NCBI GenBank assembly: GCA_048538275.1
Contig: JBLYPW010000002.1
Coordinates: 103,927-167,926 of the forward strand
Reading direction: 5' to 3'
From: Candidatus Komeilibacteria bacterium
Lineage (GTDB): Bacteria > Patescibacteriota > Patescibacteriia > UBA1558
Length of the DNA: 64,000 nt
Under the pieces are notes generated by a model. The model saw only the letters and a list, made by a program, of their open reading frames with translations. It was not told the DNA's origin and did no database searches. The position numbers and the translations under genes are program-made. Below are positions 20,809-61,547 of the stretch, one piece after another. Each line of letters begins with the position of its first letter. Within the stretch, counting starts at the first letter, position 1.

Positions 20809-21666
20809 ATGCCTGAGTTACCAGAAGTAGAGACAATTCGCCATGATTTGCGCGCTCGTATACTTAATAAGCAGATAAAAAAAGTAGTTGTGCGTAAATC
20901 TAATATGGTAGCACCTTCGGCTGCTATTTTTAAGCGTGCTTTGTTAAATAAGAAGATAGGGGACATAGATCGTATTGGTAAATTAATGATATTTAAGCTA
21001 GACGATGGCAATTATATATTATGGCATTTAAAAATGACAGGACAGTTAATTTATCAAGGCAAGAAAGGTATTGTGGCCGGCGGGCATAGCGTGCCTACCC
21101 AAAGTCAATCCCTGCCCAATCAATTTAGCCACGTATATATTATCTTTGCTGATAATTCAGTTTTGTATTTCAATGATATGCGTCAGTTTGGCTATGCCAA
21201 GCTGGCCAATCAAGAGAGCGTTGCACAAGCGAAGAAAAAATTTGGTCCAGAGCCATTGCAATCAGATTTTACTTGGGAATATTTTAAGCAGGCTTTAGGT
21301 AAGCGTAAAACCAGCATTAAGGCAGTCTTGTTGAATCAGCAATTAATAGCCGGCATTGGCAATATTTATGCTGATGAAATATGTTTTCAGGCCAAGGTGC
21401 GACCAGGTAATAAAGTTTATCGCTTATCACTGGCACAAAAAATGGCATTGTTTCAAGCTTGCAATACTATTATTAGTAAGGGTATTAAATATCGGGGCAC
21501 TACTTTGGCTGATTTTGTAGATGCAGATGGTAAGAGCGGTTTGATGGCAAGGCACTTGAAAGTTTTCGCTAGGCAGGGAAAAAAATGTTACCGTTGTGGA
21601 GAAGTTATTAAGAAAATACGCGTGGCGGGCAGGGGGACGCATTTTTGTCCTAATTGTCAGCTATAA
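20809..21666 (+). CDS. mutM: formamidopyrimidine-DNA glycosylase
   Basis: N-terminal MPELPEVE; C-terminal zinc finger CYRCG...CPNCQ. Confidence 0.9.
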   Translation: MPELPEVETIRHDLRARILNKQIKKVVVRKSNMVAPSAAIFKRALLNKKIGDIDRIGKLMIFKLDDGNYILWHLKMTGQLIYQGKKGIVAGGHSVPTQSQSLPNQFSHVYIIFADNSVLYFNDMRQFGYAKLANQESVAQAKKKFGPEPLQSDFTWEYFKQALGKRKTSIKAVLLNQQLIAGIGNIYADEICFQAKVRPGNKVYRLSLAQKMALFQACNTIISKGIKYRGTTLADFVDADGKSGLMARHLKVFARQGKKCYRCGEVIKKIRVAGRGTHFCPNCQL

Positions 21667-21762
21667 TTTTTTTAAAAAAAATAGATTGACCGGGTAGTTG
21701 TATGTTTATTTGACAGCTATTTTTTTATACTATATACTTATTAGTAATTATTCCTATTAATT

Positions 21763-22158
21763 ATGCAGCATATAAAACAGCAAATGAATCAAAAAGGGGA
21801 GCGTTTGACCCGCCAGCGGCGAGAAATATTGAGTTGGCTGCGCTCAGTAAAGACTCATCCTAGTGCTGAAGAAGTATATCAAGCAGTGAGTTTGAATATA
21901 AAGAATATTAGTCGGGGCACGGTTTATCGTAATTTAAATTATCTTGTTGATCGTGGCTTGGCGCGGGTAGTAAAAAATGATGATAATAAATATAGATTTG
22001 ATGGCAATGTAACGATGCATGATCATTTTATTTGCCAATCCTGTGGCCGCATCTTTGATATTCACACTACCGCCACGCACCATAGAAAAAAATTATCTTA
22101 TGGTAAAGTAAAAGAAAGAGAAGTGTTTTATTATGGCTTGTGTAAAAAATGCTATTAA
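21763..22158 (+). CDS. Fur-family metalloregulator (PerR-like by context)
   Basis: RLTRQRREIL DNA-binding helix; HDH; CxxC pairs; adjacent to rubredoxin/Prx/SOD genes. Confidence 0.75.
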   Translation: MQHIKQQMNQKGERLTRQRREILSWLRSVKTHPSAEEVYQAVSLNIKNISRGTVYRNLNYLVDRGLARVVKNDDNKYRFDGNVTMHDHFICQSCGRIFDIHTTATHHRKKLSYGKVKEREVFYYGLCKKCY

Positions 22159-22167
22159 TCATTAACA

Positions 22168-22362
22168 GTGTCTATTATGGCGAGTACAAGTAAAAAATAT
22201 ATTTGTAAAGCTTGTGGTTATATTTATGATCCGGAGAAAGGTGATCCGGATAGCGGTATAGCGCCAGGTACTTATTTTTCCGAAATACCTGATGATTGGG
22301 TCTGTCCTGATTGTGGGGTGTCTAAGGATATGTTTGAGCCTTATATTGAAGGCGAATACTAA
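22168..22362 (+). CDS. rubredoxin
   Basis: [10 protein letters not shown]...WVCPDCG two CxxCG knuckles. Confidence 0.9.
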
Positions 22363-22401
22363 TGAATTTAAATATTTTTCTAATTATTAAATAAAATAAC
22401 T

Positions 22402-22998
22402 ATGGAAGAAAAAAAAGCAGATCAAATAGTCAGACCAGCTTTGATTGGTCAAAAGTTACCTGATTATGAGTTTGAAATATATCATAATGATCAGGTGAAA
22501 AAAGTAAACTTTTCTGATTTTAAGGGTAAGTGGTTAATTTTGTTTTTTTATCCAGCAGATTTTACTTTTGTATGTCCCACTGAATTGGAAGATATGGCTG
22601 ATACTTATGACGAATTTAAGAAAATGGACGCCGAAGTGATTAGTTTTTCTACTGATACGGTCTTTGTGCATAAAGCTTGGCATGATAATTCTAAGGCAAT
22701 TGCCAAGATTCAGTTTCCAATGGCCGCCGATCCTACCGGCAAAGTATGCAAAGCCTTGGGTACTTATATCCAAGATGAAGGCGTTGCTTTGCGAGGTAGT
22801 TTTATAGTGGATCCGGATGGCGAGATTAAGGCTTATGAGATCCATGATAATAATATTGGTCGTAGTGCCAAGGAGTTATTGCGTAAGTTGCAAGCCGCTG
22901 ATTTTGTTCGCCAACATGGTGGTGAGGTTTGCCCGGCTAATTGGAAACCGGGTGAGAAAACTTTGCAACCGGGCTTGGATTTGGTAGGTAAAATTTAA
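22402..22998 (+). CDS. peroxiredoxin (AhpC/Prx1-type 2-Cys)
   Basis: FTFVCPTEL peroxidatic Cys motif; C-terminal resolving Cys (EVCPANW). Confidence 0.85.
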   Translation: MEEKKADQIVRPALIGQKLPDYEFEIYHNDQVKKVNFSDFKGKWLILFFYPADFTFVCPTELEDMADTYDEFKKMDAEVISFSTDTVFVHKAWHDNSKAIAKIQFPMAADPTGKVCKALGTYIQDEGVALRGSFIVDPDGEIKAYEIHDNNIGRSAKELLRKLQAADFVRQHGGEVCPANWKPGEKTLQPGLDLVGKI

Positions 22999-23037
22999 GA
23001 GAGTCAATACTGGTCTAATAATTAACTTATAAAATTT

Positions 23038-23619
23038 ATGGCTTATGAAGTAAAAGATTTTTCTAGCTTGTTGGGCACGACCGGTTTTTCTGATGATTTG
23101 TTGAATACGCATTTTAAGCTTTATCAGGGATATGTAGCCAATACCAATAAATTGGTGGATAAATTAACCGCTATGTCTGGCGATGATATTCAGTCACCAG
23201 AATACGCTGAGTTAAAAAGACGTTTTGGTTGGGAGTTTAATGGTATGCGTTTGCACGAATATTATTTTGCCAACATGTCTAAAGAAGTTTCAATTTTGCA
23301 GGAAGATGGAGCTTTGCATAAGCAGATTGTTCAAGATTTTGGTTCCTATGATCAATGGCTAGCTGACTTTAAAGGCACCGGCTCTTTACGGGGGATTGGT
23401 TGGTCAATTTTGAGTTATGATCCAATCGGTAAACGTTTATTTAATACTTGGATCAATGAGCACGATTTAGGCCATCTAGCTGGCGCACAACCGATCTTAG
23501 TAATGGATGTTTTTGAGCATGCTTTTGTCTTGGACTATGGTATGCAACGCGCTCAGTATATAGACGCTTTTGTAGCTGCAATAAATTGGCAAGAAGCAGA
23601 ACGCAGATTTACTGCATAG
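23038..23619 (+). CDS. sodA: Fe/Mn superoxide dismutase
   Basis: H...H N-terminal metal ligands; DVFEHAFVLDY C-terminal motif. Confidence 0.8.
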   Translation: MAYEVKDFSSLLGTTGFSDDLLNTHFKLYQGYVANTNKLVDKLTAMSGDDIQSPEYAELKRRFGWEFNGMRLHEYYFANMSKEVSILQEDGALHKQIVQDFGSYDQWLADFKGTGSLRGIGWSILSYDPIGKRLFNTWINEHDLGHLAGAQPILVMDVFEHAFVLDYGMQRAQYIDAFVAAINWQEAERRFTA

Positions 23620-24482: not shown

Positions 24483-24556
24483 GGGGGCGTCGTATAGTGG
24501 TAGTACAGGGGTCTCCAAAACCTCTAGCGTGGGTTCGATTCCTACCGCCCCTGCCA
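24483..24556 (+). tRNA. tRNA-Trp (anticodon CCA)
   Basis: acceptor GGGGGCG/CGCCCCT; loop CUCCAAA; T-loop TTCGATT; short D-loop. Confidence 0.8.
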
Positions 24557-24689: not shown

Positions 24690-25020
24690 CGTTAAGGTCT
24701 TTTTTAATTGGTCAGGAAACCCCGCACGAGCCCCCAGCGAGTGCGGGGATGAATGACTCCTCTCTTAACACGAACCGAAGGGTCGTGTTAAGCTATAACC
24801 ATGAGAATCCGAGCTCTAAATCATTCCACCTATCAACACCAATATCATATAGTTTGGGGAACAAAGTATCGCCGGAAATTTTTGAAAGAGTATGTTAAGC
24901 CAGAAGGATACACCGCAAACAACTACGTTCGGATTCTAATGAAACGAAAGGAAACCCCGCCTGAAAAAAGACTACCTTTGGGTAGTCTTTTTGAGCGCGG
25001 GGAGGATGTCATTTGTTTTA
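24690..25020 (+). mobile_element. decayed IS200/IS605-like remnant: two GGAAACCCCGC...GCGGGG subterminal-type hairpins bracketing a truncated Y1-transposase (TnpA) N-terminal fragment
   Basis: hairpins at about 24700-24746 and 24952-25009 share the 12-mer AGGAAACCCCGC; ORF 24801-25025 begins HSTYQHQYHIVWGTKYRRKFL like IS200 TnpA but lacks the HuH region. Confidence 0.55.
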
Positions 25021-25025
25021 GATAG
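24801..25025 (+). pseudogene. truncated IS200/IS605 TnpA (Y1 transposase) fragment
   Basis: YHIVWGTKYRRKFL matches the TnpA N-terminal beta-strand; the HuH motif is absent. Confidence 0.5.
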
Positions 25026-25108
25026 CTATATTACTATTTTAAAAAACATTGTTGTTTGTCAGTATTTTGTGAGATAATGAATATAGCCAATATTATCAAG
25101 TTTTTTTT

Positions 25109-26992
25109 ATGAATAAAAGGATAAGTTGTATTATTTTAGCTTGCGATTCACACATTACTAAAGGTTTTTCTATTTTTCACAGTTTGTTATCTGTTGTACG
25201 ACAGGATTATCTAAATGTTGAGATTATTATTGTGGAAAATAGTCATAGTAAACCTTCTTATGTAAAAGAGTTAAAGAGGAAGTTCTGCAAGTGGAATGAA
25301 TCAAATAAGGGTAAAATGACTTTAAAATTTATTAATAATACAAAGTCGCTAAGTCGTGGGGCGGCGCGTAATATTGGATTAGAATTTGCAACTGGGAATA
25401 TTATAATTTTTTTAGATGATGATACTATTCTTTTGGGACGAAATTATTTTTCTAAAATAATTAAGTTGTCTAGTAGATATGATTATGGCTATGGGGCGAA
25501 TCGTTATTGGACTTCGAATAAAATGTTTCAGAAAAAACATAGGATATTGTTAAAATTGTTTGAAAATAATGAAATTATCCAGTTAAGATCAATGGTTTCT
25601 TCTCCGTCAGTGGAGGGAAGACAGGATGATGATTCTGCTCATTATTTGAGTAAAACATTTATTGGTAATTTTGGGTTTGTTAAAGCTAATTTAATTAAAA
25701 AGGTGGGAGGATTTCCTAATTTTAATGGGTATGGATATGAAGATGATTTTTTGATGTTTAAATTATATAAATCGTATGCAAAAATGGTCATATTAGACGA
25801 CATGGAAGTTATCCATGTAAATCATAAGGTGTGTGAAAGCGGCAGGGAAAATTTTATACTTTATTTTAAAGAGTTAGTTCGTAGCGGATTTTATGGGTTT
25901 AATATTATTAAAACGCTTATTAGCGGCCACAAAAGAGAAGAAGTGTTGGAGCCTTTAAAAGTTTTACATTTTGATAGTCGGGTGGAAAGTATGTTTGAAA
26001 AATATAGGAGCTTACTACCTATCAATTTATATAATTCTACTATTAAACAGAAACAGTACTGTAAAGATAATTATATTTTGTCAAAGTTACGGTTTGTACA
26101 ACTATTATTTAAATTGGAGAATTCTCCTAGTATTGATGATTTTATTTCTAATAGTAGTGCAGATTTTGATAATTTGGCTAATATCATATCTATTGCCTTA
26201 GATTTTGATTTCATCAAGATGAATGGTGATTCTAAAATTACTTATACTTTTGGTTTTCAGTACACAAGTTTATTCTTAGCTAATTCACACGTTGATCCAA
26301 AATTAATTCCAAAAAATTCATTGAATCAATTTCCGTGTAATATGCAATCAAGGCGAAGGCGGTACAATTTTATTAAAGAGAGATATCCATATGTTGAATA
26401 CTTAAAGTTTGCTATAATAGGGGATGATGATTTTTTAAGTTTGGAATTTATTAATGATTATTGGGCGTGGCCAGTGATTATTGAAAAGGATAGTAGGATA
26501 ACTAGATTGTTAAGGAGTGTAAGTGATAGGTTTATGGTTTATGATCTGGATGTTGCAGATAATGACTCATTGAAAAAATTATCTAAAGTTCAAACCTTTA
26601 TTACAGATCCTCCTTATACTCTTGATGGGGCACTGGCTTTTATTTTCTTCGGTTTGTCTATGTTGGTTAATAGTGATGATATAAAAGAGTTTTACGTTAT
26701 TTTAAATCCAGCTATGATGGGAAGGAAGCTATTTCGTTTGCAGAAAATTCTTGCCAATGCTAATATTATTTTAGTAGATGTTATTAATAACTTTAGTCAA
26801 TATAATTTACCTACTAATTATGTTGAGAATAAACGCGCAGGAAAGTTTTCTGTTCAACATGGTATTAAGAAGAATAGTATTAAAACAAGCTCCTCATCAA
26901 ATATGTACATTTTTTCGACAGTTACGCCTGACTTGCAAGAGGTGAGAAGAAATATTAATTATAATAAAATGTATAATCATTATGATAACTAA
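25109..26992 (+). CDS. bifunctional-looking protein: N-terminal GT2 glycosyltransferase fused to a C-terminal class-I methyltransferase/aminopropyltransferase-like domain (GDDD...DPPY)
   Basis: GT2 motifs: VVENSHS, FLDDDTIL (DxD), GYGYEDDFLMF. C-terminal motifs: IIGDDDFLSLEF, MVYDLDVAD, FITDPPYT. Markedly AT-richer than flanking genes. Confidence 0.65.
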   Translation: MNKRISCIILACDSHITKGFSIFHSLLSVVRQDYLNVEIIIVENSHSKPSYVKELKRKFCKWNESNKGKMTLKFINNTKSLSRGAARNIGLEFATGNIIIFLDDDTILLGRNYFSKIIKLSSRYDYGYGANRYWTSNKMFQKKHRILLKLFENNEIIQLRSMVSSPSVEGRQDDDSAHYLSKTFIGNFGFVKANLIKKVGGFPNFNGYGYEDDFLMFKLYKSYAKMVILDDMEVIHVNHKVCESGRENFILYFKELVRSGFYGFNIIKTLISGHKREEVLEPLKVLHFDSRVESMFEKYRSLLPINLYNSTIKQKQYCKDNYILSKLRFVQLLFKLENSPSIDDFISNSSADFDNLANIISIALDFDFIKMNGDSKITYTFGFQYTSLFLANSHVDPKLIPKNSLNQFPCNMQSRRRRYNFIKERYPYVEYLKFAIIGDDDFLSLEFINDYWAWPVIIEKDSRITRLLRSVSDRFMVYDLDVADNDSLKKLSKVQTFITDPPYTLDGALAFIFFGLSMLVNSDDIKEFYVILNPAMMGRKLFRLQKILANANIILVDVINNFSQYNLPTNYVENKRAGKFSVQHGIKKNSIKTSSSSNMYIFSTVTPDLQEVRRNINYNKMYNHYDN

Positions 26993-28370
26993 ACATAAGC
27001 TTAAGCCAAATGATATTACTTTCTTAAATGAAAGTGATGTTTTATATTCTTTGGATTTTAGAGTATTGAGTGAAAATATAGACTATAAGATACCAACTAT
27101 GTGGAAATATGAAAATATATTACCATGGATACTTTCTGGTAGAAATGTTGTTGTTAATGAAAATTATACTGCCTTAGAGTATCCAAATAAAAATTCATTT
27201 GTTGTTACAAAGAAAACAAAAGATCCAAGAGTATCAATCTATGAAAGAATGTCAAAAGGATTAATGGGGGATAATATAAAAAAATTATGGGTAGCTGTGC
27301 CACATCCTGATGCTGATATTTTTTGTAAGGAAAATAAATTAAAAATTAACTATAATTATGATTCTTATCTCAAGTATAATAATAAAATCGAGCAAAAGAA
27401 ATTACTAGGTAATGCGAGCCCTAATTGGAAACTTATTTCGTCCTTTGATGAAATTAAAGGATTACAAAAAAAATATACAACAGGTTATATTAAGAGAAAG
27501 TTTGGATCGGGTGGCTATACGGTTTTTGAATTAAATAAATTGGATCATAATTTTTCTAAATTATTTAAAGAGTCATCAAATGAATGGTATTTTGAAGAGG
27601 AGGTTAAAGGAAAGGCTTATAGTATTCAATGCGTTAAGGATGGTAAAAATGTAACAGTTTTTGGATTCTCAGAACAAATTATTGAAGGACATAAGTTTTA
27701 TTCTGGTTCTAAGATTTTATCTCTTGATTTACTTAATATAAAGCTTTTTAACCAAGTTAAAAAAGCTTTAAGTAGATTTGGTGAATTTTTAGCTGACTAT
27801 AATGGTTTATTTGGCTTAGATTTTATTATTGATAAAAATAATAAAGTTTTTATTTTAGAGGCAAATATTAGGATAACTGCAGTGACAATTTCTACTTTAT
27901 TATTTAATATGGTGGGTGCAGAATCAGCTCTATTTAGGGAAGATGTAAAGAATGATAATATGGCTAAAGATGATGTGGTTCTCACATGCGAAGTTGACAA
28001 TATGAAGGACGTCCTTAGTTTTAATTCAGTTAAAGGTGTTTTAGGAATGAGCATCTATGTAGATTTTAAAAATTGCTTAGTCAACGTAAAAAGAATGGAT
28101 GATAAAGTTGCTAGAGAAATATCTGAAATTGTTAATATGATAATTAGCAATGTAGAAAAGATAGACTATCATAATTTTTGGCCGTACGGTTGGACATTGT
28201 CATTAATACTATCTAATTCACATTGCGTTATGAGTAGTTGGTATTTAGAGAAAAGAGTCTTGGTTGATGTTTTTAGTTGTAATTTAGATTATGATCAGAA
28301 ACTATTTATTAAGAAAATGTCTGATTATTTTAAGTCTAAAAATAATAAATTTAAAGTAGAATTAAGATAA
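26982..28370 (+). CDS. ATP-grasp family ligase
   Basis: C-terminal ATP-grasp signature GLFGLDFIID...NKVFILEANIR; start overlaps the upstream gene by 11 nt. Confidence 0.65.
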   Translation: MITKHKLKPNDITFLNESDVLYSLDFRVLSENIDYKIPTMWKYENILPWILSGRNVVVNENYTALEYPNKNSFVVTKKTKDPRVSIYERMSKGLMGDNIKKLWVAVPHPDADIFCKENKLKINYNYDSYLKYNNKIEQKKLLGNASPNWKLISSFDEIKGLQKKYTTGYIKRKFGSGGYTVFELNKLDHNFSKLFKESSNEWYFEEEVKGKAYSIQCVKDGKNVTVFGFSEQIIEGHKFYSGSKILSLDLLNIKLFNQVKKALSRFGEFLADYNGLFGLDFIIDKNNKVFILEANIRITAVTISTLLFNMVGAESALFREDVKNDNMAKDDVVLTCEVDNMKDVLSFNSVKGVLGMSIYVDFKNCLVNVKRMDDKVAREISEIVNMIISNVEKIDYHNFWPYGWTLSLILSNSHCVMSSWYLEKRVLVDVFSCNLDYDQKLFIKKMSDYFKSKNNKFKVELR

Positions 28371-28375
28371 ATAGT

Positions 28376-29407
28376 TTGGAAATGAATAATTATATTGTAA
28401 TTCCGCCTTATTATAAGGGTACTGCATTTCAGGAGATTGTAATACATATGCTTGTTGCGGTAAAAAAAACAAAGTACAATATAAAATTTATCGGTCTACT
28501 AGAACCAATAGATAATACCTTATCAGGGTTTTTGTTGGATGATGAGATTTATACCAAGTATCAATCTTTTTTAATTTCTGATTTAATGAATTTGAAGACA
28601 CCTGCTAAAATATTATTTTTGGATTTTTTTAATTTAGGTTTCGATTTATTACGATATTTACATGAACAAACTAATGCGAATGTTAAATATGGATCGTTAA
28701 TTCATGGAGGGTCATTTTTTGATGAAGACATATATAATATGCCGTGGTTGAGTAACTTTGAGAATGCGTGGGCAGATTTATATGATACGATGTATATAGC
28801 TTCAAATTATGGTAAGAATAGACTTCCGGATAGTTTCAAAGATAAGGTTAAAGTTATTCCTTGGGGGATGGATGGGTTTAGAAGTGAAGCATCAGTTAAT
28901 AAAATTAATGATGTTATTTTTCCACATAGATTGAGCCCAGATAAGGGGGTTGAGGATTTTATAATGATTGTTGACTCTTTGCCGCAAGTAAAGTTCATCG
29001 TGACTGTGCCTCAAAAAAAGAGTGTAATTAGCAAAAATAAATATTATAATGTCCTAAAAAAATATACTAATGTAAAATTTATTTTCAATGAGAGTATGGA
29101 AAATCACAATATAACATTATCCTCTGCAAGAGTAGTTTTGAGTTGTGCTAAACAAGAAATTTTTGGCTACTCTATTGCTAAGTCTGTTGCGTCAGGGTGT
29201 ATCCCAGTATTACCAAAAGATCAATGTTATCCAGAATTTTATCAAAGGAAATATTTATACAAGAATATACAAGATGCTATTTCTATGATAGAGGATGTTA
29301 TTATTGAGTCGAAAAGTAATACTTTATCAAATGAGGGCAATAGTAAATGTATTTATGATTTTGAAACATTTTCATTTAAGAACCATTTTGATGATTTTTT
29401 TGGTTAA
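28376..29407 (+). CDS. glycosyltransferase group 1 (GT4-like)
   Basis: C-terminal E-x7-E-like region QEIFGYSIAKSVASGCIPV; FPHRLSPDKG. Confidence 0.6.
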   Translation: MEMNNYIVIPPYYKGTAFQEIVIHMLVAVKKTKYNIKFIGLLEPIDNTLSGFLLDDEIYTKYQSFLISDLMNLKTPAKILFLDFFNLGFDLLRYLHEQTNANVKYGSLIHGGSFFDEDIYNMPWLSNFENAWADLYDTMYIASNYGKNRLPDSFKDKVKVIPWGMDGFRSEASVNKINDVIFPHRLSPDKGVEDFIMIVDSLPQVKFIVTVPQKKSVISKNKYYNVLKKYTNVKFIFNESMENHNITLSSARVVLSCAKQEIFGYSIAKSVASGCIPVLPKDQCYPEFYQRKYLYKNIQDAISMIEDVIIESKSNTLSNEGNSKCIYDFETFSFKNHFDDFFG

Positions 29408-29441
29408 AAAAGAGAGTATATATGATATATACTCTCTTTAG
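29408..29441. terminator. bidirectional terminator between the convergent GT1 and GGCT genes
   Basis: aaagagagtatatat-ga-tatatactctcttt palindrome with A/T runs on both sides. Confidence 0.6.
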
Positions 29442-29854
29442 TAATTAACATCGATTTGGGATACAATTTTTTTTATGTTCTTACATTCTCCGATAATTAC
29501 CGATGATTTAGCAACAAATACTATACCTTTGGATTTTTTACCATCAACTTCATAAAAAGTTGTCTCTTTCGGTTCATATAGAGGGCCTTCAAATTCATTA
29601 AGGCGTGATTTTAGTACGGCAAGTGAATTATTAGATACTGTGAACTGAGTTAACCATGCACTAATTTGCAGACCATTATCATCTAATATCACAATTGGGT
29701 ATTTAAAGATATTATTTGGCTCTGTTTCATCCGTCACTTCATACAAGTACCCCTTGATAAAACCAAGAGTTCTTTTTGTGGGTGATGTTTTGAGAATTTT
29801 TTTAATAAGTTTAACATTTTTTAATGATCCGTAAAATATAAATGAACAATTCAT
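29438..29854 (-). CDS. gamma-glutamyl cyclotransferase-like (AIG2/GGCT family) protein
   Basis: N-terminal FIFYGSLKN (YGSL/YGTL motif); LGFIKGYLYEV. Confidence 0.6.
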   Translation of the reverse strand: MNCSFIFYGSLKNVKLIKKILKTSPTKRTLGFIKGYLYEVTDETEPNNIFKYPIVILDDNGLQISAWLTQFTVSNNSLAVLKSRLNEFEGPLYEPKETTFYEVDGKKSKGIVFVAKSSVIIGECKNIKKIVSQIDVNY

Positions 29855-30068
29855 TTTACCTCCTTTTTTGTTTGATTTTATATATTAACATAGTTTTAAT
29901 AATTGTCAATTGTAGTGTCTTTTTTTGGTTAGCTAATAAGATTATTAAGCTAGTGATGATTATTTACAGATCAGTATTCAGACTGGGTTAATAATTTTGG
30001 TATGTAAATATAATCAGTTTCTTGTTGAATTATGGTTATAACTTCATCTACGACTGACTGCCATGAAA

Positions 30069-30098: not shown

Positions 30099-30222
30099 GG
30101 GCAGGTCGCAAGGTACCAATAGTATGTAATCTGTTTATTGTCGTTAATTTTAGATTTGACAGTTTTGGTTGGTGGTGCTAAATTTTAGGCGTAAAGGTTG
30201 TTTTAAAATAAGGAGGGGTAAA

Positions 30223-30624
30223 GTGAATAATTTTACTGTTTTGTTTTGGCGCTTTATCGTTATTATTTGTTTATTGCCATTGTTTAGCAATTGTACTGCA
30301 AGTAATACGACTTATGCGACAGAGGTTAGTGCAGTTTCTTTGCGGATGATTGCTCAATTGCAGTATCTGAATCAGCAGATTACCGAAGTAATAATTTTGG
30401 CTGACATTACCAATCCATCGGGTTATCATTATGTTATTATTAGCACGGTGATCGGCAAGCAAAGACAGACTTGGGTACTGACTGATTGGCGGGGGACAGA
30501 GACTTTCCCACAGACCGTTGTAGCGGTAAATCAGTTGGGCGGTTGGCAGGTAATTCCTCATGCAATGGGAGGGCTGGAGATCAGGATTGATCCCTTGGTT
30601 ATTTATGAAGTTAGAAAACAGTAA
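30223..30624 (+). CDS. hypothetical secreted protein (GTG start after a GGAGGGG RBS)
   Basis: signal-peptide-like N-terminus; ORF-track start at 30169 is probably too far upstream. Confidence 0.4.
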   Translation: MNNFTVLFWRFIVIICLLPLFSNCTASNTTYATEVSAVSLRMIAQLQYLNQQITEVIILADITNPSGYHYVIISTVIGKQRQTWVLTDWRGTETFPQTVVAVNQLGGWQVIPHAMGGLEIRIDPLVIYEVRKQ

Positions 30625-30704
30625 GCATAATGTTTGAAGACGATGTCAGTTTGGCGTCGTCTTTTCATTTGAGTTTCAGCCTGTTATTTTGTTATAATAC
30701 AACT

Positions 30705-31286
30705 ATGAAATTAAAAGATACTGTACAGCATAGCACTAAAAAAGAAATTCTTTTACGTTTTTTGATTATGTTTGGCGTGCTGTTAGTATATTTTGTTTTT
30801 TTGTCTTGGCAATACGGTATGGCCACGGGTGGTTGGGTAGCCATATTGACTTGGAGTTTTTTTGTTTTGTGCACGCCAATTGCTGATGCTGGTTTTTTAT
30901 TGGATTTTCCTTTGCGTTTATTATTTAATATCAAGATGGTTTTTAGTGAGGTTATTGTTTGGGTTATAGCTATTGTCGTCAATGTGATTGCCGTTCAGTT
31001 TAGTCCCGATATTTATGGCAAAACAGTTTTGACTAGCATATTTTATCAAATTTTAACTAATTTAAATCCTTATGGCCTCATTATCTTATTAGCTACCGCT
31101 GGTACTTTTTTATCAGTCAGGTTTGGGGATGAATTAATGGATGTTATGTACCATCATGAGCGCGCTATATTTCATAGACACGGTCTGTGGGTAAGGATAT
31201 TGGGTTTTGTTACCATTTTTGTTTTAACTGTCATTATATATAATATTTTGATTCAGCAATTTGGTTTAACCGAGTTTATTCAATAG
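30705..31286 (+). CDS. hypothetical integral membrane protein
   Basis: several hydrophobic helices; start placed at MKLKDTV after a TATAAT box. Confidence 0.45.
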   Translation: MKLKDTVQHSTKKEILLRFLIMFGVLLVYFVFLSWQYGMATGGWVAILTWSFFVLCTPIADAGFLLDFPLRLLFNIKMVFSEVIVWVIAIVVNVIAVQFSPDIYGKTVLTSIFYQILTNLNPYGLIILLATAGTFLSVRFGDELMDVMYHHERAIFHRHGLWVRILGFVTIFVLTVIIYNILIQQFGLTEFIQ

Positions 31287-56196: not shown

Positions 56197-56270
56197 TCGG
56201 GGATCGTCTAATGGTAGGACAGCTGGTTCTGGTCCAGCCAATCGGGGTTCGAATCCCTGTCCCCGAGCCA
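56197..56270 (+). tRNA. tRNA-Gln (anticodon CTG)
   Basis: acceptor TCGGGGA/TCCCCGA; anticodon stem GCTGG/CCAGC with loop UUCUGGU; T-loop TTCGAAT. Confidence 0.8.
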
Positions 56271-56332: not shown

Positions 56333-57265
56333 ATGAACAATAAAGCTGTAATAATTTTAACCATCATTTCAATTTCATTATCACTGTTATTACTGTTTTT
56401 TTTATTAATAGGCATATATTGGTTTAAACGTGGAGATGCTTGTTTAACACAACCACCATATTTAAATTGTCATACCCAAAATAAGTTTGAGGAAATAGAT
56501 GCTGAATTTAATAATTTATCAGGACAAATATTAAGCCTAAATGAACCATCTATTTTTAGTATTGATAAAAATGAAGGCGTTTTTTCTTTTGACCATATAG
56601 GCGAAGATACTGATTTTGGAGTAGGCTGGACTAGGATAATGCAAAATGAAGAGATTAAAGATTCTTTAGGTTTTTACACATACTATATAGATCCTATTCT
56701 TACACCTTTAACAAAAGATACTTTGATTGGATCAGCTTGGCAATACCCACAAGATTCAAAACTATATAATGGACCATTTATTAATTATTATTTAGATTTT
56801 AAAACCAGAAAAACAGTTGAATTGCCGACTAAAGGCAGGATTATTTCCAAATCTCAAGATGGACAAAAAGTGGTTTTTCTGGAAAGCGCTTGCGACAAGG
56901 AACATATACCCGAACCAACAGCGGATTGCAATAATTTAGATTTGAGTTTGAGGATTATTGATCTAACGTCAGATTTAAATGGTATGATGATTAATCATTA
57001 TTACGCGATGAACCATTGGACAGACCAGGGACCACCCTATGTTAATTTTTTGGATTTTGGCAAACTTGTATTCTCACCCGACGGAAATAGGCTGGCAATG
57101 GAAATTAAAATTGAACAAATTGACTATGACACCCCGAGTGAATATTGGACTCTATTTATCGCTGATACTAAGACAGGAGAAATTATCAAACAGAACAACA
57201 GATTATCCAAGAGTGGATATGAATATATGTTTTGGTCAGATAATGAAAATGTGATTTATTGGTAA
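56333..57265 (+). CDS. hypothetical secreted/membrane-anchored protein (AT-rich)
   Basis: N-terminal TM; no recognisable motif. Confidence 0.45.
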   Translation: MNNKAVIILTIISISLSLLLLFFLLIGIYWFKRGDACLTQPPYLNCHTQNKFEEIDAEFNNLSGQILSLNEPSIFSIDKNEGVFSFDHIGEDTDFGVGWTRIMQNEEIKDSLGFYTYYIDPILTPLTKDTLIGSAWQYPQDSKLYNGPFINYYLDFKTRKTVELPTKGRIISKSQDGQKVVFLESACDKEHIPEPTADCNNLDLSLRIIDLTSDLNGMMINHYYAMNHWTDQGPPYVNFLDFGKLVFSPDGNRLAMEIKIEQIDYDTPSEYWTLFIADTKTGEIIKQNNRLSKSGYEYMFWSDNENVIYW

Positions 57266-57269
57266 ATTA

Positions 57270-57914
57270 ATGAAAAAGATAATAACTACTTTAATTATTC
57301 TAATTGTTATTTTATTGTTTTTTGTTTTTGCAATAAATATTCATATAAACAAAATTGGTAGTAATATGTGTGATTTGGATAATATAAATCAACAAGCCGC
57401 TTTAGTTTTGGGTGCTAAAGTTTGGAATAATGGTAACTTGAGCGATATTTTTAAAGATAGGATTAATACAGCTATTGATTTGTATAATAAGGGAGAAGTA
57501 GAAAAAATTTTAGTTAGCGGCGATCATGGTCAAACGGATTATGACGAAGTAAATACCGCTAAAGAGTATCTGTTAGACAATGGGGTAAGGTTAGAAGATA
57601 TTTTTTTAGATCATGCTGGGTTTGATACTTATGATAGTCTTTATCGCGCTCGAGATGTTTTTAAAGCCGAATCATTGGTTGTAGTTACACAAAACTTTCA
57701 TCTACCGCGAGCTTTATATATAAGTAACAAGTTAGGCTTGGATTCTTGTGGTGTAAGTGCTGATTTACATAAGTATTTAGGTGAAACCACTAGGAATAGA
57801 AGAGAAATTTTGGCAAAAGTAAAAGCTTGGTTAAATATTATTTTTAATTCAACCCCCAAATATTTAGGAGATAAAATTCCCTTGTCTGGTAGCGGTTTTA
57901 ATAGTTGGGATTAA
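57270..57914 (+). CDS. DUF218 (SanA/YdcF/ElyC-like) domain protein
   Basis: N-terminal TM; ALVLGAKVWNNG...ILVSGDHG pattern. Confidence 0.6.
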   Translation: MKKIITTLIILIVILLFFVFAINIHINKIGSNMCDLDNINQQAALVLGAKVWNNGNLSDIFKDRINTAIDLYNKGEVEKILVSGDHGQTDYDEVNTAKEYLLDNGVRLEDIFLDHAGFDTYDSLYRARDVFKAESLVVVTQNFHLPRALYISNKLGLDSCGVSADLHKYLGETTRNRREILAKVKAWLNIIFNSTPKYLGDKIPLSGSGFNSWD

Positions 57915-57926
57915 TGAAATGATTAT

Positions 57927-60065
57927 ATGAAAAAAATTTATTTGATTTCACTCATAACAATCGTAGTAGGTTTAATATTTTATACACTACCTCATTGGTT
58001 TAGTTTTTTGTGGGGTTTTCAACTTTTATTATTGCCCATGTTAGCTGGTGTGTTGATGGTATTAGTTCAGAATGAAGATAGGACTTATAGGTTTTTACCA
58101 AAACTTATTACTGGGTCATTGATAGCAAGTTTTGTTTATTTAATTTTATTGCAAGTAATCGAATATGATCATGATGGTTATTTTGTTTTTTTTGGTTTTT
58201 TAATGCCAGCATTATTTTTAACAGGTGTTAGTATATTCGGTGGTTTAGTAGGAATTGTTATTAAAGGTACCGCTTTGTTATTGAATATAAAATCCGAATC
58301 GAAATTTATTTTAATAGTTAAGAAAATATTTGGAGGATTATTTTTAAGTATAGATTCGATTTTAACATTGATAGCTATTGTATTTTTTTTGATAGTAGCG
58401 TTTTATCCTTCAAGCTCTTGGCTCAACATGGTTATGGTTGATTTTAGAGTAATAGATGTAGTTGGATTTTTTAATTATTATTTGTTGCTTATCTCTGTAT
58501 TATTTATTTTTACAACACCGTTGATATTTGTCACTAATTTAGGTTTAATTTTACTGTTTCCTCTAAAAAGATATTTGAATAAAAAATTATCTTCTCGTTT
58601 AATCATTTATTTTTTTATCTTTTTAGCCGTTTTTCTTTTATCGTCTTCTTATTTGAATTCTAAATTTGAATTAAAGAAAGCAGAAATGAAAAAAAATAAT
58701 ACTAAAGAACATTTTGATATTAAAGATTTTAACAAAATAAATGTTTCGCGTTTTGTTGAATTTGATGAGATAAAAATTATTCAAGGCGATAAATTTGATA
58801 TAGTGGTTAAGGGTAGTCAATATGACCAAATAGGACTTGATATTGAAAAAAACGATGATAAAACATTAGTAATAAAAAGATCAGAGCTTGAAACGTATTA
58901 TAATACTGAAACTTGGACAATGGAGAATGAAGATTCTTTGTTTCCTGCTGGTACTAAGCATTTGGTTATAGAAATAATTATGCCCGATATTGAAAAGATT
59001 GTTTTAGATGGAGGTCATATAGAACTGGTAGATTTTGATGTTGATAATGTTGACATCGAACTCAATAAGCGATTTACTGATATCAAAGGTAATATCATAG
59101 TTGAAGACACATTAAAACTAGATGCTAAAGGAGGCGTAATTAATTTGTCTGGTTCGGCTAAAAATTTAATCATAAATTCAGGCGACTGTTGGATTGAAAT
59201 GGATAAATTTATAGTTCAAGATGCCATTATTGATGCAGTAAATACCAGCAGATTGAATGTGAATGTAAGTAATAATATGGAAATAGAAATAAACAAAAAT
59301 TCTGGTATCACAAATCATAATAATAGTGAAGTTTGGGATTCAGAAATTCAGGAGCTAGCGTTTAAACTCAAATCAAGTATTTCTGGTATAAATATCAGTT
59401 TTCCGAAGGATTCATCTCTTTGGTGGAATGATGAGGATGGCTATAGTATTTTAGTTCCTGGAAACGAATCAATTGAAGTTGTTGGGGATGATGGTGTTAG
59501 GTCTGATAATTTTGCTGAAAGTAGTTTTGTCGCTGAGTTGTTGGATATTACTAAACAAGTGTTATCTACTAGGGGATTTATTTTAAATGAGAGTAATTCA
59601 TCTGCAAATATAATGGATAAGAAGTTTTATGACTATGTTCGAGCATATAAAAATGATGATAAGTTGTGTGTAGTTAGGGTTAATCCTGATTATAGCTCTT
59701 ATGGTTGTACTGATAATATGTTGATGTGTAATGTGGTAGAGATAACCTGTGGTAATGATTTAGCTGGAAGCCAGGTTCAACAAAGACCGTTTTTAGAAGC
59801 ACTTGAACTGCAAAACAAAGAAACAATTGTACAAATCATAAAACAAATTGGAGATTTTTATAAAGTTGCTATTAGCTATCGTCGTACTGGTTCAACAGGA
59901 GTTGTTAAAAAAGAGGATGGTGGTTTACGACTTTTATATACGAGTCAAGAAGATCCACATTGTGAAATAGTAGAAACAGAACGTATTCCAAGTAATGTAC
60001 TTGAGGGTTTTGAAATAAATGGCTGTTGGACTGAAAATGGGTATAGAAAATTTAGTGGAAATTAA
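57927..60065 (+). CDS. large hypothetical membrane protein (multi-TM N-terminus, about 470-aa extracytoplasmic C-terminal domain)
   Basis: 712-aa ORF, very AT-rich; about 8 hydrophobic helices in the first 240 aa. Confidence 0.5.
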   Translation: MKKIYLISLITIVVGLIFYTLPHWFSFLWGFQLLLLPMLAGVLMVLVQNEDRTYRFLPKLITGSLIASFVYLILLQVIEYDHDGYFVFFGFLMPALFLTGVSIFGGLVGIVIKGTALLLNIKSESKFILIVKKIFGGLFLSIDSILTLIAIVFFLIVAFYPSSSWLNMVMVDFRVIDVVGFFNYYLLLISVLFIFTTPLIFVTNLGLILLFPLKRYLNKKLSSRLIIYFFIFLAVFLLSSSYLNSKFELKKAEMKKNNTKEHFDIKDFNKINVSRFVEFDEIKIIQGDKFDIVVKGSQYDQIGLDIEKNDDKTLVIKRSELETYYNTETWTMENEDSLFPAGTKHLVIEIIMPDIEKIVLDGGHIELVDFDVDNVDIELNKRFTDIKGNIIVEDTLKLDAKGGVINLSGSAKNLIINSGDCWIEMDKFIVQDAIIDAVNTSRLNVNVSNNMEIEINKNSGITNHNNSEVWDSEIQELAFKLKSSISGINISFPKDSSLWWNDEDGYSILVPGNESIEVVGDDGVRSDNFAESSFVAELLDITKQVLSTRGFILNESNSSANIMDKKFYDYVRAYKNDDKLCVVRVNPDYSSYGCTDNMLMCNVVEITCGNDLAGSQVQQRPFLEALELQNKETIVQIIKQIGDFYKVAISYRRTGSTGVVKKEDGGLRLLYTSQEDPHCEIVETERIPSNVLEGFEINGCWTENGYRKFSGN

Positions 60066-60162
60066 TTTAAATTGTATCCAAGTTTAGTAAAATGGAGAAT
60101 GGCTGTTATTCTAGAGACTTGATTACAGTTCGAATGTTAGCCTTGAAGAGTTTAACAAAAGA

Positions 60163-60192
60163 GTTCTAAAGTTGTCCCGGTATGCGAGCCAA
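60163..60192 (+). repeat. 30-bp direct repeat copy 1 (GTTCTAAAGTTGTCCCGGTATGCGAGCCAA)
   Basis: identical copy at 61449-61478; the two copies flank the Fic gene. Confidence 0.85.
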
Positions 60193-60213
60193 TTTTTTAA
60201 GGGATTTTTAGCA

Positions 60214-60335
60214 GATAATTGCAGATTGCAGCGATTGAGGTTATAGTAATGCAGCAATAAATTGTTGTTTTTATTACTAAATTTGATGATTTATATATAT
60301 TATGCAGCAATAACGTATTTGAAATGCAGCAATTA
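60214..60335 (+). promoter_or_regulatory. array of TGCAGCAAT-type repeats upstream of the Fic gene (candidate operator array)
   Basis: ATGCAGCAATAA at 60249-60260 and 60302-60313; ATGCAGCAATTA at 60324-60335; TTGCAGATTGCAGCGATTG at 60219-60237. Confidence 0.5.
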
Positions 60336-60352
60336 AGTGCTATAATAAAAGC

Positions 60353-61399: not shown

Positions 61400-61448
61400 T
61401 ATTTTTTATAAGAACATTGCCATCTAATTGTTGTTTGTGGTTAAAAAA

Positions 61449-61478
61449 GTTCTAAAGTTGTCCCGGTATGCGAGCCAA
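61449..61478 (+). repeat. 30-bp direct repeat copy 2
   Basis: identical to 60163-60192. Confidence 0.85.
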
Positions 61479-61547
61479 AAGACCATTCATGATAATAAGT
61501 GGTTTTTTTGTTTTGACTTTTATTTAAGAACATAAGATAATAAGACC

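What the first reader, a model, noticed from the sequence alone, without database searches (positions are those of the whole stretch)
25109..26992. Unusual fusion: GT2 glycosyltransferase with a C-terminal GDDD…DPPY class-I transferase domain
The first roughly 270 aa carry GT2 hallmarks: a DxD motif in FLDDDTIL and a GYGYEDD region. The last roughly 200 aa have a Rossmann-like methyltransferase motif order. These are a motif-I-like IIGDDDFLSLEF, an acidic end of beta2 in VYDLD, and a motif-IV ITDPPYT.

GDDD is the signature of DUF43/BpsA-type aminopropyl or branched polyamine transferases. DPPY is the amino-methyltransferase catalytic tetrapeptide. A glycosyltransferase physically fused to such a domain suggests coupled glycosylation and N-alkylation or methylation of a single substrate.
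Basis: partly seen in the sequence, partly recalled or inferred. Interest (0 to 1): 0.6.

Follow-up and report, generated by a model that had tools for sequence, protein, structure and literature searches.

The report
Glycosyltransferase–aminopropyltransferase fusion in mobile cassette
This gene really does fuse a sugar-transferring enzyme to a relative of the branched-polyamine synthase BpsA, and it belongs to a rare, horizontally moving four-to-five-gene cassette that probably builds a new aminopropylated, glycosylated derivative of a queuosine precursor base rather than a polyamine.

Summary

The fusion is conserved but rare: about 75 clusters, mostly CPR/Patescibacteria.

The decarboxylated-SAM side of BpsA is kept (GDDD, D500, Y565). 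The acidic polyamine-binding side is neutral: D126 becomes N406, DPPE becomes the invariant DPPY, E259 is lost, and there is no C-terminal acidic cluster.

The gene heads a low-GC island (25.0-30.0 kb) next to tRNA-Trp and an IS200 remnant. The island also holds an ATP-grasp–AdoMet-decarboxylase fusion, a GT4 glycosyltransferase and a GGACT-like cyclotransferase.

Among 42 non-redundant related loci, the GT4 partner is found in 38. The decarboxylase module is free, or fused to either neighbour.

Sixteen of the 42 loci carry queuosine-precursor genes (YhhQ transporter, QueF-like, QueE, QueC/D, FolE, one Tgt). None of 37 control loci does.

Best reading: a decarboxylated-SAM-dependent cassette that decorates a 7-deazaguanine scaffold. 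The substrate is inferred, not shown. I found no paper describing the cassette.

The parts
25109..26992 (+). ORF of 627 aa: GT2 glycosyltransferase fused to a BpsA-like aminopropyltransferase. This is the finding.
   Evidence: It is identical to an NCBI MAG protein named 'bis-aminopropyl spermidine synthase family protein [Candidatus Komeilibacteria bacterium]'.
25109..25963 (+). GT2 / GT-A glycosyltransferase domain (aa 1-285). The DxD lies in FLDDDTIL (nt 25409-25432). The conserved D212/D213 lie in GYGYEDD (nt 25727-25747).
25964..26305 (+). Helical, winged-helix-like N-domain of the BpsA-like half (about aa 286-399).
   Evidence: Model secondary structure is H290-300, H312-321, H326-337, H342-349, H353-365, E369-371, E376-379. 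This stretch is covered by the free-standing homologues of about 345 aa and by the whole-BpsA Foldseek alignment.
26306..26989 (+). Rossmann-type catalytic domain (aa 400-627). Its landmarks are NQFPC (nt 26324-26338), GDDD within nt 26414-26449, D461 (nt 26477-26491), DPPY within nt 26600-26620, Y565 (nt 26792-26803) and SSSS (nt 26888-26899).
   Evidence: Pfam BpsA_C.
26982..28370 (+). Next gene, overlapping the first by 11 nt: an ATP-grasp ligase (aa about 1-345) fused to an AdoMet decarboxylase module (aa 346-462, nt 28017-28367). The pyruvoyl-precursor Ser lies in LSNSHC (nt 28209-28226) and the Cys at nt 28278.
   Evidence: Pfam ATP-grasp_3 and AdoMet_dc. NCBIfam best hits are SAM_DCase_Bsu, LdmS and PylC. 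Alignment to T. maritima AdoMetDC is.
28376..29407 (+). GT4-type (GT-B fold) glycosyltransferase, the obligate partner of the BpsA-like gene.
   Evidence: Weak Pfam Glycos_transf_1 hit. Model pLDDT 93.6. Foldseek matches BshA, SenB, MshA, PglA, a tetrahydrobiopterin glucosyltransferase and glycogen synthase. Found in 38 of 42 related loci.
29438..29854 (-). GGACT/AIG2-like gamma-glutamyl(amine) cyclotransferase-like protein of 138 aa, convergent with the operon.
   Evidence: Pfam GGACT E 0.0018, below the cut-off. It has the YGSL-type and FEG motifs. Orthologues sit in the same position in 13 loci, and other GGACT types occur in 6 more.
25000..30000 (.). Compositional island: 26-31% G+C against 36-45% in the flanks. 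It coincides with the four cassette genes.
   Evidence: and at coarser scale.
24483..24556 (+). tRNA-Trp(CCA) immediately upstream of the island.
24801..25025 (+). Truncated IS200-like (Y1 transposase) remnant between the tRNA-Trp gene and the cassette.
   Evidence: Translation. Pfam Y1_Tnp scores 23.3 bits and covers only profile positions 2-27 of 121.

Best explanation
The ORF encodes a soluble bifunctional enzyme. Its N-terminal GT2 (GT-A, inverting-type) glycosyltransferase is fused to a complete BpsA-family aminopropyltransferase that uses decarboxylated SAM (dcSAM). It is the first gene of a horizontally acquired four-gene cassette.

Inferred pathway:
1. The AdoMet decarboxylase module on the neighbouring ATP-grasp protein makes dcSAM.
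2. The GDDD pocket of the BpsA-like domain binds dcSAM and transfers the aminopropyl group to an amine. That amine is not a polycationic polyamine, because every acidic acceptor-side residue of BpsA is neutralised and DPPE has become DPPY. DPPY is the motif that amino-methyltransferases use for planar or exocyclic amines stacked on an aromatic residue.
3. The ATP-grasp ligase adds an amino-acid-type carboxylate in amide linkage. The GGACT-like enzyme would process a gamma-glutamyl-amine intermediate.
4. The GT4 enzyme and the fused GT2 domain add one or two sugars.

The scaffold is most probably a 7-deazaguanine: preQ1, whose aminomethyl group is a primary amine, or preQ0/CDG. It would be imported by YhhQ or made by QueCDEF.

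Shown here: the domain identities, motif conservation, cassette conservation and gene association. Inferred: donor, acceptor, order of steps and product.
For: Domains:

dcSAM dependence:
- GDDD is conserved, with D440 and D441 invariant. In Tk-BpsA, D159/D160 of this motif position the aminopropyl group of dcSAM (review PMC12979288).
- AdoMet_dc occurs free next to the gene in 14 loci, fused to the ATP-grasp neighbour in 12, and fused to the N-terminus of the GT2-BpsA protein in P0059.
- A sister DPPY clade in WWE3/Saccharibacteria is itself fused to AdoMet_dc.

The acceptor is not a polyamine:
- D126 becomes the invariant N406.
- E of DPPE becomes the invariant Y503.
- E259 becomes P/A.
- The C-terminal acidic carrier cluster is absent.
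- After BpsA, the nearest folds are N6-adenine and N2-guanine methyltransferases.

Cassette:
- The GT4 partner is found in 38 of 42 non-redundant loci and the ATP-grasp in 29 of 42. GGACT-like genes recur.
- Start and stop codons overlap.
- None of the four proteins has a transmembrane segment.

7-deazaguanine link:
- A YhhQ/Vut_1 gene that passes the NCBIfam cut-off abuts or lies close to the cassette in 8 loci.
- QueF-like genes sit directly upstream in 3 loci.
- QueE or QueE-like genes occur in 4 loci.
- A full FolE-QueD-QueE-QueC set lies between the GT4 and GGACT genes in an Acetivibrio MAG.
- PTPS occurs in one locus and Tgt lies 2.3 kb upstream in one locus.
- None of these genes occurs in 37 control loci totalling 486 kb.

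Feasibility: bacterial TGT inserts N-propyl-substituted preQ1 (azido-propyl-preQ1) into tRNA in vivo (abstract of PMC9561289).
Against: - This window has no Que gene within 64 kb, and 26 of the 42 loci show none within the DNA available.
- Only the YhhQ hits and one QueE pass curated cut-offs. The QueF-like and three QueE-like proteins score below them.
- Apart from the one Tgt 2.3 kb upstream in L019, no tgt or dpdA is close to the cassette, and no preQ1 riboswitch was found.
- In the ATP-grasp-fused decarboxylase modules, including this one, the residue equivalent to T. maritima His68 is Ser/Thr. Self-processing is therefore not assured.
- The GT2 domain's sequence neighbours are ordinary cell-envelope glycosyltransferases.
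- There is no biochemical evidence for donor, acceptor or product.
Confidence: 0.5

Rival explanations
1. The cassette makes a glycosylated, amino-acylated polyamine-type small molecule that has nothing to do with 7-deazaguanine. Examples would be a gamma-glutamyl-polyamine glycoside or a low-molecular-weight thiol in the manner of bacillithiol, mycothiol or trypanothione. The Que genes would be neighbours by chance or by co-mobility.
For: - The GT4 partner's best structural matches include BshA and MshA, the first enzymes of bacillithiol and mycothiol synthesis.
- ATP-grasp plus GGACT-like suggests gamma-glutamyl chemistry.
- In this window the island lies just downstream of Fur, AhpC-type peroxiredoxin and superoxide dismutase genes.
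- 26 of the 42 loci show no Que gene.
Against: - The acidic polyamine-binding residues of BpsA are all neutral in this clade.
- Que genes occur in 16 of 42 loci against 0 of 37 controls, often overlapping or abutting the cassette on the same strand.
- A complete preQ0 pathway is embedded inside the cassette in L067.
- The oxidative-stress genes in the window have host G+C and lie outside the island.
Confidence: 0.2
2. The protein decorates a cell-envelope polymer (a wall teichoic-acid-like or polysaccharide chain) with sugar and aminopropyl or polyamine groups. It would be an ordinary surface-glycan operon with an unusual cationic substituent.
For: - The GT2 domain's sequence and structure neighbours are EPS, teichoic-acid and O-antigen glycosyltransferases: HpsN, PglI, TuaG, TarS/TarP, RmlT and K4CP.
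- GT2 plus GT4 pairs are typical of such operons.
Against: - No flippase, polyprenyl-phosphate transferase, polymerase or any membrane protein is conserved in the cassette.
- All four proteins lack transmembrane segments.
- The GT2 domain is dispensable in about a third of the family.
- The cassette is associated with cytoplasmic nucleobase-pathway genes.
Confidence: 0.12
3. The C-terminal half is a true BpsA orthologue that makes branched-chain polyamines from spermidine, merely fused to an unrelated glycosyltransferase.
For: - NCBI names the protein 'bis-aminopropyl spermidine synthase family protein'.
- Pfam BpsA_C scores above its cut-off.
- GDDD, D225 and Y290 are conserved.
Against: - E259 and the C-terminal acidic aminopropyl-carrier cluster, both needed in Tk-BpsA, are absent. 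DPPE is DPPY and D126 is N.
- bpsA orthologues are reported only from thermophiles and hyperthermophiles, whereas this family is in CPR and other MAGs.
- Identity to Tk-BpsA is only about 20%.
- The obligate GT4 and ATP-grasp partners are unexplained by polyamine synthesis.
Confidence: 0.08
4. The C-terminal half is a SAM-dependent N-methyltransferase. DPPY would act as an amino-methyltransferase motif IV, and no aminopropyl transfer would occur.
For: - DPPY is the amino-methyltransferase tetrapeptide.
- METTL5, M.BseCI and TrmN are the next-best folds after BpsA.
Against: - Motif I is GDDD rather than the glycine-rich loop. In BpsA these aspartates pair with the dcSAM amine.
- The AdoMet decarboxylase is repeatedly fused or adjacent.
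Confidence: 0.05

Closest known systems
BpsA, N4-bis(aminopropyl)spermidine synthase (EC 2.5.1.128; Thermococcus kodakarensis TK1691, PDB 5XNC/5XNH; Thermus thermophilus 6J27; Pfam PF01861, formerly DUF43)
   Same: - GDDD after beta1, the Asp of DPPx after beta4, and the Tyr equivalent to Y290 are all present.
- A genomic link to AdoMet decarboxylase implies the same dcSAM donor.
   Different: - DPPE becomes the invariant DPPY, D126 becomes N, and E259 is lost.
- There is no C-terminal acidic aminopropyl-carrier cluster. An invariant SSSS-N-L-Y and an NQFPC motif appear instead.
- It carries an N-terminal GT2 fusion.
- It is found in CPR and other MAGs not known to be thermophilic, always with a GT4 partner.
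- Identity is about 20%.
GT2-family GT-A glycosyltransferases (SpsA 1H7L, PcManGT 6YV7, K4CP 2Z86, TarS/TarP, and the nucleoside 3'-O-glucosyltransferase AvpGT 9JMA)
   Same: - GT-A fold with DxD and a conserved acidic catalytic region.
- Pfam PF00535 scores above its cut-off.
   Different: - It is fused to an aminopropyltransferase and has no membrane anchor.
- Sequence similarity to any characterised member is marginal: PDB phmmer E of at least 0.09, and the family profile reaches 2e-8.
- Donor sugar and acceptor are unknown.
Amino-directed class-I methyltransferases with an (N/D)PP(Y/F) motif IV (METTL5 6H2U, M.BseCI 7QW5, TrmN 3TMA)
   Different: Motif I here is GDDD, and the donor is inferred to be dcSAM rather than SAM. 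No homology beyond the shared Rossmann core was demonstrated.
Glycosylated or amino-acylated queuosines: galactosyl- and mannosyl-queuosine made by QTGAL (GT-A type) and QTMAN (GT-B type) in vertebrates, and glutamyl-queuosine made by GluQRS. This comparison rests on my own knowledge, not on a test here.
   Same: It is a functional analogy only. In both cases a 7-deazaguanine scaffold would be further decorated with sugars and an amino acid, by one GT-A-type and one GT-B-type enzyme.
   Different: No sequence relationship was tested. Those enzymes act on tRNA-bound queuosine, and no aminopropylation is known there. The target molecule here (free base, tRNA or DNA) is unknown.
Butirosin BtrJ (ATP-grasp) and BtrG (gamma-glutamyl cyclotransferase), a protecting-group pair. 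This comparison rests on my own knowledge.
   Same: An ATP-grasp ligase and a GGACT/AIG2-type enzyme co-occur in a small-molecule tailoring cluster.
   Different: No carrier protein or acyltransferase is present, homology to BtrJ/BtrG was not tested, and the chemistry is only inferred.

Membership tests
BpsA / PF01861 family (broad sense: dcSAM aminopropyltransferase fold) | Match to the Pfam BpsA_C model above its gathering score | tested here: met
   55.7 bits against a cut-off of 27, E 5.6e-15, aa 434-622.
BpsA / PF01861 family (broad sense) | Two-domain BpsA fold (N-domain plus Rossmann catalytic domain) | tested here: met
   [not shown]
BpsA / PF01861 family (broad sense) | GDDD motif (Tk G157-D160), indispensable for positioning the aminopropyl group of dcSAM | tested here: met
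   G438-D441 are present. D440 and D441 are invariant and G438 is at least 90% conserved in 60 homologues.
BpsA orthologue (branched-chain polyamine synthase, EC 2.5.1.128) | Acceptor-side residues Asp225, Glu259, Tyr290 and Tyr316 | tested here: not met
   D225 = D500 and Y290 = Y565 are kept. E259 aligns to P534/A535 (LNPxMMG). The Glu of DPPE is the invariant Y503. Y316 could not be aligned with confidence.
BpsA orthologue (branched-chain polyamine synthase, EC 2.5.1.128) | C-terminal acidic cluster that carries the aminopropyl group (Tk E339, D342-E345) | tested here: not met
   The C-terminus reads ...KTSSSSNMYIFSTVTPDLQEVRRNINYNKMYNHYDN and the family consensus is YSSSSNLY...K-Y-HY. There is no acidic cluster.
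BpsA orthologue (branched-chain polyamine synthase, EC 2.5.1.128) | Spermidine is converted to N4-bis(aminopropyl)spermidine | not testable with these tools
   This needs an enzyme assay.
Glycosyltransferase family 2 (GT-A, inverting) | Pfam PF00535 above its cut-off, GT-A fold, DxD motif and a downstream acidic catalytic residue | tested here: met
   [not shown]
Amino-methyltransferases ((N/D)PP(Y/F) class) | A glycine-rich SAM-binding motif I, and the (N/D)PP(Y/F) motif IV after beta4 | tested here: not met
   Motif IV (DPPY after E496-499) is present. Motif I is GDDD, not the glycine-rich loop. The fold similarity is real but second to BpsA.
Queuosine / 7-deazaguanine pathway (as an accessory tailoring module) | Genomic association with defining pathway genes (YhhQ, QueC/D/E/F, FolE, Tgt) | tested here: inconclusive
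   16 of 42 related loci against 0 of 37 control loci. None lies in this window, and several of the Que-like proteins score below curated cut-offs.
Queuosine / 7-deazaguanine pathway (as an accessory tailoring module) | A 7-deazaguanine substrate or product | not testable with these tools
   This needs an enzyme assay or LC-MS.

The most novel reading that the evidence does not exclude
The cassette makes a previously unknown hypermodified 7-deazaguanine: an N-aminopropyl-preQ1 carrying one or two sugars, and in most versions an amino-acyl group. The host's tRNA-guanine transglycosylase, or a DNA transglycosylase, would then install it in tRNA or DNA. That would make it a mobile, queuosine-like modification system of CPR bacteria and the first aminopropylated nucleobase.
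Probability: 0.25. Interest if true: 0.85.

Novelty: new variant of a known kind. Interest (0 to 1): 0.68.

Why it matters
BpsA-type enzymes are known only as branched-polyamine synthases of thermophiles. This clade keeps their dcSAM machinery but has lost every acidic polyamine-binding residue, has gained the amino-methyltransferase DPPY motif, and is welded to a glycosyltransferase.

If the acceptor is a 7-deazaguanine, three things would follow:
- It would be the first aminopropyl transfer to a nucleobase.
- It would be a bacterial counterpart of the glycosylated queuosines of animals.
- It would add new chemistry to the family of 7-deazaguanine modifications of tRNA and DNA.

The cassette is compact and soluble, with four or five genes, so it can be tested directly by heterologous expression. 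It also shows that genome-reduced CPR bacteria, which must import queuosine precursors, spend a mobile gene island on decorating them.

Even if the scaffold guess is wrong, the cassette defines a rare and uncharacterised dcSAM-dependent tailoring pathway.

Tried and rejected
- Riboswitches. An Rfam gathering-threshold scan of the window and of seven related loci found only tRNAs and a tmRNA, and no preQ1 or SAM riboswitch.
- Phage origin. A scan of IMG/VR found no relative, and PHROGs gave only generic hits.
- Integration repeats. No direct repeat of the tRNA-Trp 3' end flanks the island. Only chance-level AT-rich repeats and two hairpins were found.
- Que genes in the window. tblastn with YhhQ, QueC/D/E/F-like and FolE seeds found nothing.
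- The two ORFs downstream (30169-30624 and 30630-31286). They have no family match, host-like G+C and no orthologues in related loci, so I rejected them as cassette members.
- Literature. Searches combining BpsA/DUF43, 7-deazaguanine/preQ1, aminopropyl, ATP-grasp, GGCT, YhhQ and CPR found no description of the fusion or the cassette. One candidate preprint proved irrelevant.
- The WWE3-type DPPY clade as a clue to function. Its neighbours are housekeeping genes (MnmA, M23 peptidase, RecF, Fpg) and say nothing.
- Sequence search of the GT4 partner against the PDB found nothing on its own. A profile and a structure model were needed.
- Model coordinates could not be read, so the relative placement of the two active sites was not examined.
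Full report
**1. The observation**

The ORF 25109..26992 (+) is intact: ATG start, 627 aa.

Pfam finds Glycos_transf_2 (aa 25-148, 50.0 bits, cut-off 23.3) and BpsA_C/PF01861 (aa 434-622, 55.7 bits, cut-off 27). Sequence searches of the PDB hit only two groups. One is the BpsA group: 2qm3 and 5xnc at E about 1e-10 with the single sequence and 1e-15 with a family profile. The other is GT2 enzymes.

An AlphaFold2 model built on 60 homologues is confident (pLDDT 93.2, pTM 0.90).
- Foldseek aligns about 360 columns to whole BpsA.

So the C-terminal half is a complete BpsA-like protein, N-domain plus catalytic domain (aa 286-627), not just a 200-aa Rossmann domain.

In the model, GDDD follows beta1 and DPPY follows beta4. 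The invariant D461 ends beta2.

**2. The family**

The protein is identical to a MAG protein of Candidatus Komeilibacteria that NCBI names 'bis-aminopropyl spermidine synthase family protein'. About 75 clusters at 90% identity share the full GT2+BpsA architecture. They come mostly from CPR/Patescibacteria, with a few labelled Bipolaricaulota, Bacteroidetes, Acetivibrio or Gammaproteobacteria.

An exhaustive HMMER scan of 1.84 billion representatives finds only 45 at E<=1e-30. About 21 are fused and about 15 are free-standing at roughly 345 aa. The family is therefore rare.

In a neighbour-joining tree of the BpsA-like halves, the free-standing forms are scattered among fused ones. This suggests repeated loss of the GT2 domain. 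The tree has no bootstrap support and is only indicative.

**3. What is kept and what is changed relative to BpsA**

A 2026 review (PMC12979288) lists the functional residues of Tk-BpsA:
- GDDD (G157-D160), where D159/D160 position the dcSAM aminopropyl group.
- Asp225, Glu259, Tyr290 and Tyr316 on the acceptor side.
- A C-terminal acidic cluster (E339, D342-E345) that carries the aminopropyl group in a ping-pong mechanism.

I aligned a Tk-BpsA fragment, canonical DPxE homologues, the WWE3-type clade and the cassette clade. Together with the invariant columns, this gives the comparison below.

Conserved in the cassette clade:
- GDDD (D440/D441)
- D225 = D500
- Y290 = Y565

Changed in the cassette clade:
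- The D of FDQ (Tk D126) becomes the invariant N406, within an invariant NQFPC.
- DPPE becomes the invariant DPPY (Y503).
- E259 aligns to P534/A535.
- The acidic C-terminus is replaced by an invariant SSSS-N-L-Y and K-x-Y-x-H-Y.

So the donor side is retained and the acceptor side has lost its negative charge. I infer a dcSAM-dependent aminopropyltransferase whose acceptor is not a polycation.

DPPY is the motif amino-methyltransferases use for exocyclic or planar amines. Those enzymes are the next-closest folds. This is consistent with a base-like acceptor but does not prove one.

**4. The neighbourhood**

The gene overlaps by 11 nt a 462-aa protein made of an ATP-grasp ligase plus an AdoMet decarboxylase module. 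The ligase's best NCBIfam relatives are LdmS and PylC, both amino-acid ligases.

Then come two more genes:
- A GT4-type GT-B glycosyltransferase at 28376-29407, with model pLDDT 93.6. Its Foldseek matches are BshA, SenB, MshA, PglA and a tetrahydrobiopterin glucosyltransferase.
- A convergent GGACT-like gene at 29438-29854.

None of the four proteins has a transmembrane segment.

The four genes coincide exactly with a 26-31% G+C block (25.0-30.0 kb) in a 36-45% background. The block lies directly after tRNA-Trp and a truncated IS200-type transposase remnant. The module was evidently acquired horizontally.

**5. The cassette is conserved**

I gathered loci in three ways: by exact-protein look-up, from GTDB genomes and from metagenomes. 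I called ORFs and clustered them.

Among 42 non-redundant loci:

| Component | Loci |
|---|---|
| GT4 partner | 38 (most loci lacking it are short contigs) |
| ATP-grasp | 29 |
| AdoMet_dc, free | 14 |
| AdoMet_dc fused to the ATP-grasp C-terminus | 12 |
| AdoMet_dc fused to the N-terminus of GT2-BpsA (P0059, seen on many marine contigs) | 1 |
| GGACT-like, same type as in the window | 13 |
| GGACT-like, three other types | 6 |
| NUDIX hydrolase | 10 |

A variant cassette replaces ATP-grasp and GGACT with an Amidohydro_2-like protein and a GNAT acetyltransferase (5 loci).

The wandering decarboxylase module is strong evidence for functional coupling to dcSAM. The free modules have the canonical ESH...HTWPE...C motifs. 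The ATP-grasp-fused ones, including this window's, keep the pyruvoyl Ser and the Cys but have Ser/Thr at the position of T. maritima His68. That is a caveat.

A sister DPPY clade in WWE3/Saccharibacteria consists of BpsA-like proteins fused C-terminally to AdoMet_dc.

**6. The link to 7-deazaguanine**

Genes next to or inside the cassette in related loci:
- The queuosine-precursor transporter YhhQ/Vut_1 in 8 loci. It scores 113-139 bits against the TIGR00697 cut-off of 51, and in L010, L022 and L023 it overlaps or abuts the BpsA-like start.
- A QueF-like gene directly upstream in L007, L014 and L096 (67-75 bits, below the cut-off of 86.9).
- QueE or QueE-like genes in L012, L021, L067 and L068. 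Only the L067 copy passes its cut-off.
- PTPS in L005.
- In an Acetivibrio MAG (L067), QueD-QueE-FolE-QueC sit between the GT4 and GGACT genes.
- A bona fide Tgt lies 2.3 kb upstream in L019.

That makes 16 of 42 loci (573 kb in total). In 37 non-redundant control loci anchored on the sister clade (486 kb), the count is zero. The controls are largely syntenic WWE3 genomes, so they are not fully independent.

This window itself has no Que gene, and no riboswitch was found.

preQ1 carries a primary aminomethyl amine. Bacterial TGT is known to accept an N-propyl-substituted preQ1 in vivo (abstract of PMC9561289, seen). So a route through the free base is feasible.

**7. Interpretation**

Most likely (about 0.5): a soluble tailoring cassette in which dcSAM made in situ is used to aminopropylate a 7-deazaguanine scaffold. 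An amino acid is then ligated and possibly trimmed, and one or two sugars are added. The fused GT2 domain provides an optional second glycosylation on the same molecule.

The domain functions and the dcSAM dependence are well supported. The scaffold rests on gene association. The order of steps and the final target (free metabolite, tRNA or DNA) are not known.

The rivals are weighed in the structured fields:
- an unrelated glycosylated gamma-glutamyl or polyamine small molecule
- a cell-envelope decoration
- a true BpsA
- a methyltransferase

**8. Novelty**

NCBI already labels the protein as a BpsA-family member, so the domain is not new. I found no paper describing the GT2 fusion, the acceptor-side remodelling, the cassette or its 7-deazaguanine association. 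The BpsA review states that orthologues are confined to thermophiles.

I rate it a new variant of a known kind, with a realistic chance of marking a categorically new nucleobase modification.

Noticed in passing
window 24801-25025 (+): A 74-codon ORF whose first 35 residues or so (MRIRALNHSTYQHQYHIVWGTKYRRKFLKEYVK) match the N-terminus of IS200-type Y1 transposases. The Pfam Y1_Tnp hit covers only profile positions 2-27 of 121, so this is a truncated remnant. It sits between tRNA-Trp and the low-GC cassette and is followed by a hairpin at 24955-25002.
   Followed up: partly
window 56333-62264 (+), after tRNA-Gln 56197-56270: A second low-GC block (29-32% G+C), also directly downstream of a tRNA gene. 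It encodes an unknown 310-aa protein, a DUF218 protein, a 712-aa DUF2807 adhesin-like protein, an HTH-Fic protein and an ExoX-like exonuclease. It is probably another acquired island, unrelated to the finding.
   Followed up: partly
loci L024-L064 and L112-L148 (for example L024:9569-10882): WWE3 and Saccharibacteria genomes encode a protein of about 437 aa in which a DPPY-type BpsA-like enzyme (GDDD, TDPPYT, GSASSLY) is fused at its C-terminus to a canonical AdoMet decarboxylase. This is a self-contained dcSAM-making and dcSAM-using enzyme with housekeeping neighbours. Its acceptor is unknown.
   Followed up: partly
L019, L069, L087, L090, L109: A variant cassette without ATP-grasp or GGACT. 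The order is GT4, Amidohydro_2-like (about 306 aa), GT2-BpsA, free AdoMet_dc, GNAT acetyltransferase. In L087 and L090 a YhhQ transporter follows. L069 lies next to terminase and N6/N4 DNA methylase genes, possibly a prophage.
   Followed up: partly
L067:7252-9038: In the Acetivibrio MAG, a 2-hydroxyacyl-CoA-dehydratase-like protein (HGD-D) and its BcrAD/BadFG-type activator sit between the GT4 gene and the QueD-QueE-FolE-QueC set. I could not explain this pair. The locus has no QueF.
   Followed up: no
L012:7952-9508(-), L068:6867-8423(-), L015:5944-7041(+): An extra GT2-like protein of 365-518 aa accompanies the cassette in three loci, in addition to the fused GT2 domain. APH-type kinases also recur near the cassette (L015, L019, L022, L096), as do NUDIX hydrolases (10 loci).
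   Followed up: partly
window 29404-29444: A 20-nt inverted repeat, 90% complementary with a 1-nt loop, lies exactly between the convergent GT4 gene (stop at 29407) and GGACT-like gene (stop at 29438). It looks like a shared bidirectional terminator.
   Followed up: no
L095 (contig ODLC01000019.1): Under translation table 11 the cassette genes of this locus break into short ORFs (BpsA-like 132 aa, ATP-grasp 145 aa, GT4 117 aa). This is what one would expect if the organism reads UGA as a sense codon, as Absconditabacteria and Gracilibacteria do. I did not re-translate it.
   Followed up: no
window 20809-23619 (+): Upstream of the island, at host G+C, lies a run of oxidative-stress and repair genes: Fpg DNA glycosylase, a Fur-family regulator, an AhpC/Prx peroxiredoxin and an Fe/Mn superoxide dismutase. 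They are not conserved next to the cassette in other loci.
   Followed up: partly
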